This document shows positions 57,908 to 59,867 of a stretch of 64,000 nucleotides of DNA, one piece after another (position 1 is the stretch's first letter; the number at the start of each line of letters is the position of its first letter). The position numbers and the translations under genes were made by a program. The stretch covers positions 94,317-158,316 of the forward strand of contig JAGXRP010000066.1 in assembly GCA_018335795.1 (NCBI GenBank). The letters are read 5' to 3'. A model generated the notes under the pieces. It was not told where the DNA came from and ran no database searches. It saw only the letters and a list, made by a program, of their open reading frames with translations. The stretch comes from Desulfobulbaceae bacterium (GTDB lineage: Bacteria > Bacteroidota > Ignavibacteria > Kapaibacteriales > UBA2268).

Positions 57908-59026
57908 ATGAGTAAGGTAGTATATGTTGATGAATCAGGCGCACATGGTTTTAATAGTTCGGATTCAAGAGGTAATTTTTATGTCATTTCGTTGGTCATT
58001 ATTGATGAAGTGAAGCGAAGTGATTTTGAATCAAAATATTTATCGGTGATTAGGAATCATCATCAGAGCGAGTTTTTAAAGTATTCAACTCTTAAAAAGA
58101 AGCGAAATTGCAATGAAATCATTGACGAAATTATGAAGTTAGAATTCTCGTTTTTCTCCTTAGTTGTTGACAAGAGTAAAATTCATAAGGATAGTGGATT
58201 GAAGTTTAAAACAGTATTTTACAAATTTCTTCATAGAATTGTGTATGAACGACTTTTTAAATCATTTCAAAAAATTAATATAATCAGTGATGATTATTGT
58301 GATGATGATTTTCATGATAGTTTTAAAAAATATATTAAATCTATTACTCAAGGAATGAGCTTATTCAAAGATGTAGAGATTACATTTGTAAATCGTGATC
58401 CCATTGTACAATTGTCAGATATCATTTCTGGTGTTTTTAGAGATAAACAGATAAATGAGCAAATTGATATTTACAATAAGTTAAAGACAAAATCACTATT
58501 TTGCTATAATTTCCCTCAGTCTTTTTACATAAACCAAGATAATGTAAATGATAGTTTGTTAGAGCAGAACGGAGTATTGAATTCAGATATTATTCAAGAA
58601 ATGTCTATTAAAGTCACTATAGAAGCAATTCATAAATTAAAGGATGAAAATTCAAAATTTTTATTACATCTACTATTGTTGAATTCCTTCTCTTTACATG
58701 ATGATTATATTCACAGTCATAAAATTGTGAATCACTTTAAAGAATTTTTTGATATTGACATTGAGGAGAATCAAGTCAAACGGAGCATGATTCCAAAATT
58801 ACGAGACAAAGGTGTTTTAATTTCAAGTTCTCCAAAAGGATATAAATTACCTACGAAATATTCTGATATATTGGATTATATTGCAATAACTGATAGGAAC
58901 GTTAATAACCAGATAAATAGGTTAGAGAATTTTCTGAAAGATTTTGCAATAAAGCTTGATAAGCCGATTCACGATTTAGTTGATGAAAGTAAGTATTTTA
59001 AATTGAATCAGATATTGGCTCGTTAA
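57908..59026 (+). CDS. DUF3800-family protein
   Basis: Begins MSKVVYVDESGAHGF, the characteristic (I/V)Y(I/V)DESG N-terminus of DUF3800. It ends at about 372 aa and is very AT-rich. The likely start is 57908 (the tool ORF starts 57866). Confidence 0.55.
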   Translation: MSKVVYVDESGAHGFNSSDSRGNFYVISLVIIDEVKRSDFESKYLSVIRNHHQSEFLKYSTLKKKRNCNEIIDEIMKLEFSFFSLVVDKSKIHKDSGLKFKTVFYKFLHRIVYERLFKSFQKINIISDDYCDDDFHDSFKKYIKSITQGMSLFKDVEITFVNRDPIVQLSDIISGVFRDKQINEQIDIYNKLKTKSLFCYNFPQSFYINQDNVNDSLLEQNGVLNSDIIQEMSIKVTIEAIHKLKDENSKFLLHLLLLNSFSLHDDYIHSHKIVNHFKEFFDIDIEENQVKRSMIPKLRDKGVLISSSPKGYKLPTKYSDILDYIAITDRNVNNQINRLENFLKDFAIKLDKPIHDLVDESKYFKLNQILAR

Positions 59027-59126
59027 GAATTTTGTCCCATCAGTTGACAACTTACGGAACAACAAGGAGTTATTATGATTTTCGATAATGAAACATTTAC
59101 AAATTCATGCGAAACAATATAAAACT

Positions 59127-59867
59127 ATGTCAAAATCAAAAATAGAATGGACAGAGAGTACATGGAACCCGATTACGGGGTGTACGAAAATTTCTTCCGG
59201 TTGCCGATTCTGCTACGCAGAAATTATGGCAAGAAGGTTGCAAGCTATGGGGCAACCCAAGTATGCCGATGGTTTCAAGCTGACTATTCACCCGGATACC
59301 CTTGACGAGCCATATACTTGGAAAAAACCCAGAGTGGTATTCGTTAATTCGATGAGCGATATTTTTCATAAGGACGTTCCGATTGACTTCATCCAAAAAA
59401 TTTTCAAGGTAATCAACGACAATCCGCAACATGTTTTTCAGGTTCTGACCAAACGGGCAGATGTACTATATAAATATGACAGCGAGGGTTTGCTGAATTG
59501 GTCGGAGAATTTGTGGATGGGTGTAACTGTGGAAAGTTCTAAAGTTACCAAAAGAATAGATTTTTTGAGACGAACCGGTGCACATGTAAAATTTCTCTCC
59601 TGCGAACCCTTGATTAGTGCTATTCCCAATATGAATCTTAGCGGAATTGATTGGGTAATTGCCGGTGGCGAAAGCGGACGCACTCCACGCCCAATAGACA
59701 AAGAATGGGTGCTCGACATAAAGCAACAATGCGACAATCTGGGCGTTGCCTTTTACTTCAAACAATGGGGCGGTACAAATAAGAAAAAAAGCGGTAGAAT
59801 GATTGATGGCGTTACTTATGATGCCATGCCCAGAAGCGTCACAATATCCAACACCAAAACGGCATAG
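59127..59867 (+). CDS. Gp37/Gp68-family protein (DUF5131) with three-Cys motif
   Basis: [32 protein letters not shown] (Cx6CxxC) ... [10 protein letters not shown] ... [40 protein letters not shown]. This matches the DUF5131 family pattern as I recall it. The likely start is 59127 (the tool ORF starts 59088). Confidence 0.7.
   Translation: [246 protein letters not shown]

What the first reader, a model, noticed from the sequence alone, without database searches (positions are those of the whole stretch)
57908..59867. DUF3800 + Gp37/Gp68 (DUF5131) gene pair riding next to a Type IIG RM gene: candidate uncharacterised defence module
The two genes are co-directional, separated by 100 nt, and embedded in a tRNA-linked island beside a restriction enzyme, which is the classic 'defence island' context. 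DUF5131 proteins carry a conserved three-Cys motif (here Cx6CxxC in [20 protein letters not shown]). In annotation databases they are reported to co-occur with a 'three-Cys-motif partner protein' (TcmP). Here the partner position is occupied by a DUF3800-like protein with a DESG N-terminus. Neither family has an experimentally established function as far as I know. Their co-localisation with an RM system suggests an anti-phage or anti-plasmid role.
Basis: partly seen in the sequence, partly recalled or inferred. Interest (0 to 1): 0.8.

Follow-up and report, generated by a model that had tools for sequence, protein, structure and literature searches.

The report
DUF3800 nuclease replaced DUF5131's usual partner
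The two genes are real and sit beside a restriction enzyme, but they look like neighbours by accident: a solitary RNase-H-like nuclease gene has replaced the usual partner (TcmP) of a radical-SAM-like enzyme, and that usual pair is already a catalogued, untested defence candidate.

Summary
A Type IIG restriction-modification (RM) gene (55026-57788), a DUF3800 gene (57908-59026) and a DUF5131 gene (59127-59867) lie co-directionally downstream of tRNA-Pro. The Cx6CxxC motif is present.

The "gene pair as a module" reading is not supported.
- In the 75 closest genomic DUF5131 loci with a callable ORF, 55 carry TcmP, almost always directly upstream with a gap of about 0 nt. None carries a DUF3800 relative.
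- Ten independent loci holding relatives of this DUF3800 protein never contain DUF5131.
- TcmP+DUF5131 is already in PADLOC as the untested candidates PDC-M30 and PDC-M41, often embedded in RM operons.

The decisive evidence is two metagenomic contigs (L090, L091) that are 95-97% identical alleles of this locus. They read RM–TcmP(PDC-M30A)–DUF5131. The window differs by a gene-precise swap of tcmP for a 27%-GC DUF3800 block, running from the RM stop codon to DUF5131's ATG, and by a swapped RM specificity domain.

The DUF3800 protein is an RNase HII/HIII-like nuclease with a C-terminal winged helix. Its relatives are solitary genes that recur beside restriction genes and in defence islands.

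Best reading: a small, variable, RM-anchored defence islet with an autonomous DUF3800 nuclease and an orphaned PDC-M30B. Interest is modest. The natural allele pair would make a good experimental handle.

The parts
54222..54298 (+). tRNA-Pro(GGG), about 700 nt upstream of the RM gene
   Evidence: ARAGORN; Rfam RF00005 at 61.5 bits
54437..54603 (+). Repeat unit U1, the diverged copy: promoter-like TTTGCA-N17-TATATT(TG), hairpin/T-run terminator and palindrome
54608..54840 (+). Repeat unit U2, the left bracket of the island. It is 88-94% identical to U3
   Evidence: the repeat finder families D1, D2, D5, D6; alignment A1; fold z = -2.9
54942..54987 (+). Promoter-like element of about 46 nt (contains TAATTTTG) upstream of the RM gene. 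The same element precedes tcmP in L090 (3136-3181) and L008 (3804-3841)
   Evidence: blastn; sequence
55026..57788 (+). Type IIG restriction-modification enzyme (920 aa from the ATG; the ORF opens at TTG 54999). It has a PD-ExK nuclease motif, an NPPY N6-adenine methyltransferase motif and a TaqI_C-like specificity domain
   Evidence: Pfam, NCBIfam and PADLOC; motifs
56674..57596 (+). RM specificity-domain block with no homology to the sister allele L090. GC is 31% against 47.5% for the RM N-terminal part shared with L090
   Evidence: blastn window vs L090/L091; GC; mismatch map
57772..59125 (+). Replacement block (27.5% GC) that stands where the tcmP gene and its promoter stand in L090 (3134-4316). 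It runs from about the RM stop codon to 1 nt before the DUF5131 ATG
57908..59026 (+). DUF3800 protein (372 aa): an N-terminal RNase HII/HIII-like domain (D8, E9, D128, Q168, D171) and a C-terminal helical plus winged-helix domain
59041..59064 (+). A copy of the palindromic CAGTTG..CAACT.ACGG motif that otherwise accompanies the U units. It lies inside the replacement block, just after the DUF3800 stop
59127..59867 (+). DUF5131 / Gp37-Gp68 family protein (246 aa), a radical-SAM-like enzyme with Cx6CxxC (C19, C26, C29). It matches the PADLOC PDC-M30B and PDC-M41B models. It is 98.4% identical to the L090 copy, with dN/dS 0.058
59980..60207 (+). Repeat unit U3, the right bracket of the island, including the strong terminator at 60102-60132
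   Evidence: fold z = -6.25

Best explanation
The locus is a small, variable, RM-anchored defence islet, not a dedicated DUF3800+DUF5131 system.

The likely ancestral layout, preserved in sister alleles L090 and L091, is Type IIG RM – TcmP – DUF5131. The last two genes are the PADLOC candidate PDC-M30. In the window's lineage, recombination replaced tcmP and its promoter, gene-precisely, with a low-GC block carrying a solitary DUF3800–winged-helix gene. A separate block swapped the RM specificity domain.

Proposed working model (inferred, not shown):
1. The RM enzyme restricts unmethylated DNA. Its specificity differs from that of the sister allele.
2. The DUF3800 protein acts on its own as a metal-dependent RNase HII/HIII-like nuclease. 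Its winged helix targets or regulates it, probably on RNA:DNA hybrids or structured nucleic acids of invading elements.
3. DUF5131 is a radical-SAM-type enzyme closest to spore-photoproduct lyase, so it probably acts on nucleic-acid bases. It normally works with the methyltransferase-like TcmP. Here it is an orphan: either a not-yet-decayed remnant, or working alone as it apparently does in actinophages.
For: The canonical partner is TcmP.
- 55 of 75 closest DUF5131 loci contain TcmP. 53+2 of 68 immediate co-directional upstream neighbours are TcmP, with gaps of about -14 to +60 nt, mostly -4 to +5.
- TcmP matches PADLOC PDC-M30A at 457 bits and PDC-M41A at 350 bits.
- Neither TcmP nor a remnant of it exists in the 64-kb window.

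The allelic swap.
- L090 1-1869 matches window 54802-56673 (96.3%). L090 2958-3133 matches 57597-57771 (95.5%). L090 4317-5211 matches 59126-60019 (97.3%).
- The two blocks in between are non-homologous.
- Both non-homologous blocks are low in GC (31% and 27.5%) against 43-48% for the shared backbone.

No recurrence of the pair.
- BLAST and a subfamily HMM find no DUF3800 relative in the 80 DUF5131 loci.
- The DUF3800 subfamily is a coherent set of ~380-aa proteins, with 476 clusters at E<1e-10.
- Its members sit alone. Some lie beside restriction genes: L098 (Vsr–MutH–Dcm–Mrr/AspBHI–DUF3800) and L006 (a Type ISP-like methyltransferase two genes downstream). L093/L094 lie in a GAP1/DO-GTPase/SLFN-helicase island. 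L001 and L007 lie by integrases or recombinases. L002, L005 and L095 lie among housekeeping genes.

Folds.

RM embedding of TcmP–DUF5131.
- hsdR–TcmP–DUF5131–hsdS…hsdM in L014 and L017, with a same-sized upstream gene at that position in L011, L015 and L018. Type IIG–TcmP–DUF5131 in L026.
Against: - DUF5131 is fully intact, with all invariant residues. Its dN/dS against the TcmP-linked allele is 0.058, so there is no sign of decay. The date of the swap is unknown, though.
- No terminator is predicted between DUF3800 and DUF5131, and no clear promoter precedes DUF5131. The two are therefore probably co-transcribed, which is what a functional pair would also show.
- In about 10-15% of DUF5131 loci the upstream slot holds another gene type: a KAP NTPase in L051, AAA_14/DUF4143 in L022, HNH in L085. 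Partner exchange could be a real feature of the family.
- No activity was tested. The roles given to the DUF3800 nuclease and to DUF5131 are inferences from fold and context.
- Only 10 DUF3800-subfamily contexts could be sampled.
Confidence: 0.65

Rival explanations
1. DUF3800–winged-helix functionally substitutes for TcmP. The nuclease and the radical-SAM enzyme cooperate as a new two-gene accessory module of the RM system. For example, DUF5131 might modify or damage nucleic acid that the RNase-H-like nuclease then recognises or cleaves.
For: - The DUF3800 gene occupies exactly the TcmP slot.
- The two genes are co-directional and 100 nt apart, with no predicted terminator between them.
- DUF5131 is intact and under purifying selection.
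- Both TcmP and this DUF3800 protein combine an enzymatic N-domain with a C-terminal winged helix.
- Other loci show non-TcmP genes in the slot.
Against: - No second occurrence in the 80 DUF5131 loci or in 10 DUF3800-subfamily loci.
- No homology between TcmP and the DUF3800 family (hhalign probability 0.6%).
- The translational coupling typical of TcmP–DUF5131 is lost.
- The strong GC contrast points to a recent foreign block.
- The DUF3800 subfamily is otherwise solitary.
Confidence: 0.12
2. Neither gene is an immune gene here. On this view DUF5131, with or without TcmP, is a nucleic-acid modification or repair enzyme that mobile elements carry for their own benefit, for example as anti-restriction in phages. 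The DUF3800 gene would be a selfish or housekeeping RNase-H-like gene that landed in a recombination hotspot.
For: - DUF5131 is found in 178 phage and 433 plasmid records.
- In Gordonia phage Fairfaxidum it lies between the integrase and the immunity repressor, next to a methyltransferase.
- Several DUF3800-subfamily members sit among housekeeping genes (L002, L005, L095).
- PDC-M30 and PDC-M41 are untested candidates.
- The island is bracketed by repeats, consistent with a hotspot.
Against: - TcmP–DUF5131 is repeatedly embedded inside Type I RM operons and downstream of Type IIG enzymes.
- DUF3800-subfamily members recur next to restriction genes and in a GTPase/SLFN-helicase island.
- DUF3800 domains are tied to retron type VII and to CRISPR Cas12a2/a3/Cas13 loci in the literature.
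- No terminal inverted repeats or transposase features flank the DUF3800 gene.
Confidence: 0.15

Closest known systems
PADLOC phage-defence candidates PDC-M30 and PDC-M41 (Payne et al. 2024, bioRxiv 10.1101/2024.01.29.577857): TcmP-type protein (A) plus DUF5131 (B)
   Same: The window's DUF5131 matches PDC-M30B and PDC-M41B at 402-404 bits over the full length. It sits beside an RM gene, as those candidates do. The sister allele L090 is a complete PDC-M30 (A at 457 bits).
   Different: Component A is missing from the window. No PADLOC, NCBIfam or tblastn trace of it was found. An unrelated DUF3800 gene stands in its place. The candidates themselves are untested.
DUF3800 (PF12686) proteins of retron type VII and of CRISPR Cas12a2/Cas12a3 (TPR-DUF3800) and Cas13 CASK (Csx32) loci
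   Same: The N-terminal DE motif, the QxxD motif and the RNase H2-like fold are shared. So is residence in defence or mobile-element contexts.
   Different: There is no reverse transcriptase, TPR domain, cas gene or associated Rfam DUF3800 RNA motif here. This subfamily is a solitary ~380-aa protein with its own C-terminal winged-helix domain. The Pfam score is only just above threshold.
RNase HII / HIII (e.g. PDB 1io2, 1eke, 4py5)
   Same: These are the best structural matches to residues 1-205. The N-terminal DE(S/A)G carboxylates are conserved, as are two later aspartates.
   Different: Sequence identity is 12-19%. The protein has an extra winged-helix C-domain, a patchy distribution on mobile elements, and an unknown substrate.
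Spore photoproduct lyase and the related radical-SAM Megacluster 5
   Different: The Cys spacing is Cx6CxxC, not CxxxCxxC. Generic TIM barrels score almost as well. The model's N-terminal third is low-confidence. No chemistry is known.
Type IIG RM enzymes (Eco57I/MmeI-like)
   Same: A single polypeptide with a PD-ExK nuclease, an NPPY methyltransferase and a TaqI_C-like specificity domain. The specificity domain is exchanged between alleles.
   Different: Nothing unusual. Activity and recognition site were not determined.

Membership tests
DUF5131 / Gp37-Gp68 (PF07505) | Full-length match to the family HMM above the gathering score | tested here: met
   319.6 bits against 28.9, covering 1-243/243
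DUF5131 / Gp37-Gp68 (PF07505) | Conserved N-terminal three-Cys motif | tested here: met
   C19, C26 and C29 (Cx6CxxC) are invariant in 44 relatives
PADLOC PDC-M30 / PDC-M41 two-gene candidate | Component B (DUF5131) present | tested here: met
   PDC-M41B at 404 bits and PDC-M30B at 402.5 bits
PADLOC PDC-M30 / PDC-M41 two-gene candidate | Component A (TcmP-type protein) encoded next to B | tested here: not met
   The DUF3800 protein has no PADLOC hit even at E 10 and no NCBIfam hit. tblastn with 61 TcmPs finds nothing in the window. The sister allele L090 does have A.
TcmP (TIGR04474) | The upstream partner matches the TcmP model | tested here: not met
   0 NCBIfam families for the DUF3800 protein. 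hhalign of the TcmP profile against the DUF3800 profile gives probability 0.6%.
DUF3800 (PF12686) | HMM match above the gathering score | tested here: met
   25.0 bits against 21, residues 5-177, profile 2-146/149. Marginal.
DUF3800 (PF12686) | N-terminal DE motif and C-terminal QxxD motif | tested here: met
   VDESG (D8, E9) and Q168-L-S-D171. All are at least 90% conserved in 99 relatives.
DUF3800 (PF12686) | RNase H-like fold | tested here: met
Retron type VII (RT + DUF3800) | Adjacent reverse transcriptase and msr/msd RNA | tested here: not met
   The island's three genes are an RM enzyme, DUF3800 and DUF5131. Rfam finds only the tRNA in 53500-61000.
CRISPR-associated TPR-DUF3800 / Csx32 | TPR fusion and/or neighbouring cas genes | tested here: not met
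   Pfam finds only DUF3800. The C-domain is a winged helix, not TPR. The island's only other genes are the RM enzyme and DUF5131, and the genes flanking it are an OPT transporter and a peptidase M3.
Radical SAM superfamily | Canonical CxxxCxxC cluster motif | tested here: not met
   The spacing is Cx6CxxC. SFLD and RadicalSAM.org nevertheless list DUF5131 as a subgroup.
Radical SAM superfamily | Partial (beta/alpha) TIM-barrel core | tested here: inconclusive
Radical SAM superfamily | [4Fe-4S] binding and reductive SAM cleavage | not testable with these tools
   Needs anaerobic biochemistry
Type IIG restriction-modification enzyme | Nuclease, methyltransferase and specificity domain in one polypeptide | tested here: met
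   PD65-x-E-x-K, NPPY547, and Eco57I/N6_Mtase/TaqI_C domains. PADLOC REase_MTase_IIG at 433 bits.
tRNA-integrated genomic island | Integrase and a direct repeat of the tRNA 3' end at the far border | tested here: not met
   No integrase ORF lies between 54300 and 60260. The flanking direct repeats are the U units, not tRNA sequence.

The most novel reading that the evidence does not exclude
The slot upstream of DUF5131 is a true partner-exchange position. On this reading a DUF3800–winged-helix RNase-H-like nuclease can take over from the methyltransferase-like TcmP. The result would be a new RM-linked two-enzyme system: radical-SAM chemistry on nucleic acid, read out by an RNase-H-type nuclease. 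The two natural alleles (window against L090) would then be functional alternatives.
Probability: 0.1. Interest if true: 0.6.

Novelty: new variant of a known kind. Interest (0 to 1): 0.3.

Why it matters
The finding adds little new biology as it stands. Both families are known, and the real DUF5131 pairing (with TcmP) is already a listed defence candidate.

Its value is practical. The window and contigs L090/L091 form a natural near-isogenic pair, 95-97% identical. They differ only in the RM specificity domain and in TcmP against DUF3800. That pair could be cloned directly to ask three questions:
- Does PDC-M30 defend?
- Does DUF5131 need TcmP?
- Is the solitary ~380-aa DUF3800–winged-helix family (hundreds of clusters, recurring beside restriction genes) a single-gene defence nuclease?

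The locus is also a clear example of gene-precise cassette exchange inside an RM-anchored islet.

Tried and rejected
- **DUF3800-associated RNA motifs (Weinberg 2017).** Rfam scans of the island (E up to 1) and of five homologue loci plus the whole window (gathering threshold) returned only tRNAs. The non-coding flanks of the DUF3800 gene show no excess structure (z 0.04 and 1.25).
- **A TcmP remnant.** tblastn with 61 TcmPs against the 64-kb window found nothing credible. The 100-nt spacer has no similarity to TcmP C-termini.
- **Remote homology between TcmP and the DUF3800 family.** Rejected: hhalign probability 0.6%.
- **The DUF3800 gene as an IS or transposon.** No flanking inverted repeats were found.
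- **More alleles or empty sites.** Exact-pattern scans of metagenome contigs with an RM 3' sequence and with the U-unit promoter both returned zero.
- **A wider census from the DUF3800 side.** Only 10 contexts were sampled, through the look-up of encoding contigs.
- **A gene-caller discrepancy.** L092 lists DUF5131 as 206 aa, which looked like possible decay. The DNA is 100% identical to the window, so it is only a start-codon choice.
- **Solved structures by sequence.** None for either protein.
- **Literature.** Searches for TcmP, DUF5131, Gp37/Gp68 and GMT-wHTH found no functional study.
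Full report
**1. What is there**

Between tRNA-Pro(GGG) (54222-54298) and a convergent peptidase-M3 gene (60269-62398), three co-directional genes lie on the + strand.
- **Type IIG RM enzyme, 55026-57788.** The ORF opens at TTG 54999. It carries Eco57I, N6_Mtase, MmeI_Mtase and TaqI_C domains and matches PADLOC REase_MTase_IIG at 433 bits. 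It has PD65…E-x-K and NPPY547 motifs.
- **DUF3800 protein, 372 aa, 57908-59026.** PF12686 scores 25 bits against a cut-off of 21.
- **DUF5131/Gp37-Gp68 protein, 246 aa, 59127-59867.** PF07505 scores 319.6 bits over its full length. It has weaker similarity to TIGR04471, "radical SAM mobile pair protein A", at 92 bits.

The spacer between the last two genes is 100 nt. The motif [20 protein letters not shown] is present, and its three Cys are invariant in relatives.

**2. DUF5131's real partner, and what is already known**

The DUF5131 protein matches the PADLOC models PDC-M41B and PDC-M30B at about 403 bits. These are the B components of two "phage defence candidates". Payne et al. derived them by guilt-by-embedding in BREX, DISARM and Type I RM systems. 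They are explicitly untested.

I fetched the 80 closest genomic DUF5131 loci (56-87% identity, from many phyla).
- 75 have a callable DUF5131 ORF, and 55 of those contain TcmP.
- Of 68 immediate co-directional upstream neighbours, 53+2 form the TcmP family. TIGR04474 scores 110-130 bits for the two main-cluster representatives and 38 bits, below its cut-off, for the two-member cluster. They usually overlap or abut the DUF5131 start.
- The ~370-aa TcmPs are PDC-M30A and the ~300-aa TcmPs are PDC-M41A.
- In the closest Bacteroidota-type relatives the pair is embedded in Type I RM operons. hsdR–TcmP–DUF5131–hsdS…hsdM is annotated in L014 and L017, and L011, L015 and L018 show a same-sized upstream gene at that position.
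- In L026 the pair follows a Type IIG enzyme.

A TcmP profile gives only weak PDB hits: RlmJ and HI0767 methylases on the N-domain (E 0.25-0.6) and a BlaI-type winged helix on the C-domain (E 0.12). Pfam finds a GMT-like wHTH. A methyltransferase-like nature for TcmP is thus a lead, not a result. I found no functional paper on TcmP or DUF5131.

**3. The pair in the window does not recur**

- BLASTP and an HMM of the DUF3800 subfamily find no relative in any of the 80 DUF5131 loci.
- The window's protein belongs to a coherent family of ~380-aa proteins: 735 clusters at E≤1e-3 and 476 at ≤1e-10.
- I examined ten independent loci of that family. None has DUF5131.
- Their contexts are informative:
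  - L098 is Vsr–MutH-like–C5-methylase–AspBHI/Mrr endonuclease–DUF3800.
  - L006, the closest homologue, lies two genes upstream of a Type ISP-like methyltransferase-nuclease.
  - L093/L094 lie in an island with GAP1-N1, DO-GTPases, HNH, an SLFN-type helicase and MazG.
  - L001 and L007 lie by an integrase or by serine recombinases and transposases.
  - L002, L005 and L095 lie among housekeeping genes.
- No TcmP or TcmP fragment exists anywhere in the 64-kb window.

**4. The decisive comparison**

The closest DUF5131 (P0166, 98% identical) is encoded on two metagenomic contigs, L090 and L091. Their gene order is Type IIG RM (968 aa) – 367-aa GMT-wHTH protein – DUF5131. The middle protein is PDC-M30A at 457 bits.

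| L090 | Window | Identity |
|---|---|---|
| 1-1869 | 54802-56673 | 96.3% |
| 2958-3133 | 57597-57771 | 95.5% |
| 4317-5211 | 59126-60019 | 97.3% |

Two blocks have no similarity.
- **Block a:** window 56674-57596 against L090 1870-2957. This is the RM specificity-domain region.
- **Block b:** window 57772-59125 against L090 3134-4316.

Block b contains the DUF3800 gene in the window. In L090 it contains tcmP with its promoter-like leader. Homology stops within the last few codons of the RM gene and resumes 1-2 nt before the DUF5131 ATG.

Both window-specific blocks are low in GC (31% and 27.5%; the DUF3800 gene has GC3 of 25%). The shared backbone is 43-48% GC.

TcmP–DUF5131 is the norm elsewhere, so the L090 arrangement is most simply ancestral and the window carries a derived replacement. 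The window allele is present in three assemblies, and the one compared base for base (L092) is 100% identical. It represents one population.

**5. State of the orphan**

The DUF5131 genes in the window and in L090 differ at 21 sites. Sixteen are synonymous. The four amino-acid changes are K5R, D87E, E127D and A179T. dN/dS is 0.058 and dS is 0.12, similar to the RM N-terminal part at 0.081. Mismatches are spread evenly along the gene.

The gene is intact and has been under purifying selection. The swap cannot be dated, so this does not show that DUF5131 is still useful without TcmP.

Some evidence suggests it may work alone. It occurs without an annotated TcmP in Gordonia phage Fairfaxidum, where it lies between the integrase and the immunity repressor, beside a convergent methyltransferase. 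The family is found in 178 phage records, mostly Mycobacterium and Gordonia phages. About 10-15% of bacterial loci have another gene in the slot.

**6. What the proteins are**

*DUF3800 protein.*
- The AlphaFold2 model has pLDDT 90.6 and two domains joined by a disordered linker at residues 207-220.
- D8, E9, D128, Q168 and D171 are at least 90% conserved, together with K58, S59, K89 and a C-terminal "LRD.GV.I.S..KGYK.P" motif.
- This agrees with published predictions for DUF3800.

*DUF5131.*
- The model is mediocre (pLDDT 67). Residue blocks 80-210 mostly score 79-98, and the Cys-bearing N-terminus is unmodelled.
- RadicalSAM.org lists DUF5131 as Megacluster-5-2, beside spore photoproduct lyase in 5-3.
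- A DNA-directed radical-SAM activity is therefore plausible but inferred.

**7. Transcription and borders**

- No terminator is predicted between the RM gene, DUF3800 and DUF5131. The first strong one on the + strand is at 60102-60132.
- A TAnnTTTG-type box (TATATTTG) lies about 33 nt upstream of the DUF3800 ATG. This is read from the sequence, and the consensus is from my own knowledge of Bacteroidota promoters.
- DUF5131 has no obvious promoter of its own, so co-transcription with DUF3800 is likely.
- The three genes are bracketed by two copies of a ~200-230-nt unit: U2 at 54608-54840 and U3 at 59980-60207, 88-94% identical. A diverged third copy, U1, lies at 54437-54603.
- Each unit has a promoter-like TTTGCA-N17-TATATT(TG), an A/U hairpin, a GC hairpin terminator and a palindrome, CGTCAGTTG(T)AACAACTGACG. 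At least one apparent compensatory change separates the terminator stems of U2 and U3, read from the sequences. The units fold with z = -6.25 and -2.9.
- There is no integrase and no tRNA-derived repeat. "tRNA-linked island" is true only as a matter of position.
- A copy of the palindrome also sits just after the DUF3800 stop (59041-59064).

**8. Verdict**

The families and the defence-island flavour are right. The pair as a functional module is not supported. It is best explained as a one-off, gene-precise replacement of PDC-M30A (TcmP) by a solitary DUF3800–winged-helix nuclease gene, in an islet that also exchanged its RM specificity domain.

I put about 0.65 on this reading, about 0.12 on true functional substitution, and about 0.15 on a non-defence reading of these accessory genes. 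Interest is modest at 0.3. The main asset is the natural allele pair as an experimental handle on two uncharacterised families.

Noticed in passing
window 54437-54603, 54608-54840, 59980-60207: Three copies of a small promoter–A/U hairpin–terminator–palindrome unit, found only around the island in this 64-kb window. U2 and U3 are 88-94% identical and bracket the three genes. The terminator stems of U2 and U3 appear to differ by at least one compensatory change (read from the sequences), and the units fold with z = -6.25 and -2.9. They could be small-RNA genes or a recombination or insertion hotspot. There is no Rfam match.
   Followed up: partly
window 54413-54436, 54588-54603, 54790-54813, 54903-54926, 59041-59064, 60155-60178: A palindromic motif, CAGTTG(N1-3)CAACTGACG, occurs six times, all at or near cassette borders. 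One copy lies just after the DUF3800 stop, inside the replaced block. Shorter core matches at 11346 and 23222 lie inside giant ORFs and look like chance. The motif may be a recombination or REP-like site.
   Followed up: partly
window 56674-57596 vs L090 1870-2957: The Type IIG RM enzyme's specificity-domain region is non-homologous between the two alleles, while the N-terminal two-thirds and the last ~175 nt are 95-96% identical. This is a classic specificity-domain swap. The window's version has 31% GC.
   Followed up: partly
window 54942-54987; L090 3136-3181; L008 3804-3841: A ~46-nt promoter-like element containing TAATTTTG precedes the RM gene in the window. In L090 and L008 it precedes tcmP instead (85-89% identity).
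   Followed up: no
L093 7001-9784, L094 4258-7041, L099 3190-6013: In one DUF3800-subfamily clade (393-aa proteins), the gene is always followed by a co-directional 515-532-aa protein with no Pfam domain. In L093/L094 this sits inside an island with GAP1-N1, DO-GTPase1/2, a metallophosphatase, HNH, an SLFN-like helicase and MazG-like genes. It may be a two-gene unit.
   Followed up: no
L098 194-6062: Vsr – MutH-like – C5 DNA methylase – AspBHI_N/Mrr_cat endonuclease – DUF3800 subfamily member (15-nt gap). This is another restriction cluster ending in this DUF3800 type.
   Followed up: no
L017 7944-9881: A 645-aa protein with a cytidine/dCMP deaminase zinc-binding domain is embedded in the same Type I RM operon as TcmP–DUF5131, between hsdS and hsdM.
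   Followed up: no
L088 (Gordonia phage Fairfaxidum NC_048185) 3983-5924: In this temperate actinophage, DUF5131 (gp42) lies between the integrase (gp39) and the immunity repressor (gp44). It converges on a 398-aa methyltransferase (gp43), and no TcmP is annotated.
   Followed up: no
window 8048-13717, 13873-17580, 17881-29490: Three consecutive giant + strand ORFs of 1889, 1235 and 3869 aa. They were not analysed.
   Followed up: no
L008 3865-4766: In the closest genome-collection relative (DUF5131 87% identical), TcmP is split into 126-aa and 174-aa ORFs. This is either a frameshift or pseudogene, or an assembly error. A tRNA-Arg lies about 1.3 kb upstream.
   Followed up: no
window as a whole; P0001 source name: NCBI labels the MAG carrying this DUF3800 protein as Desulfobulbaceae. 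The nearest DUF5131 relatives are Bacteroidota or Ignavibacteria-type MAGs, the local promoter-like boxes are of the TAnnTTTG type, and GC is 38%. This may be a binning or label problem. It was not checked.
   Followed up: no
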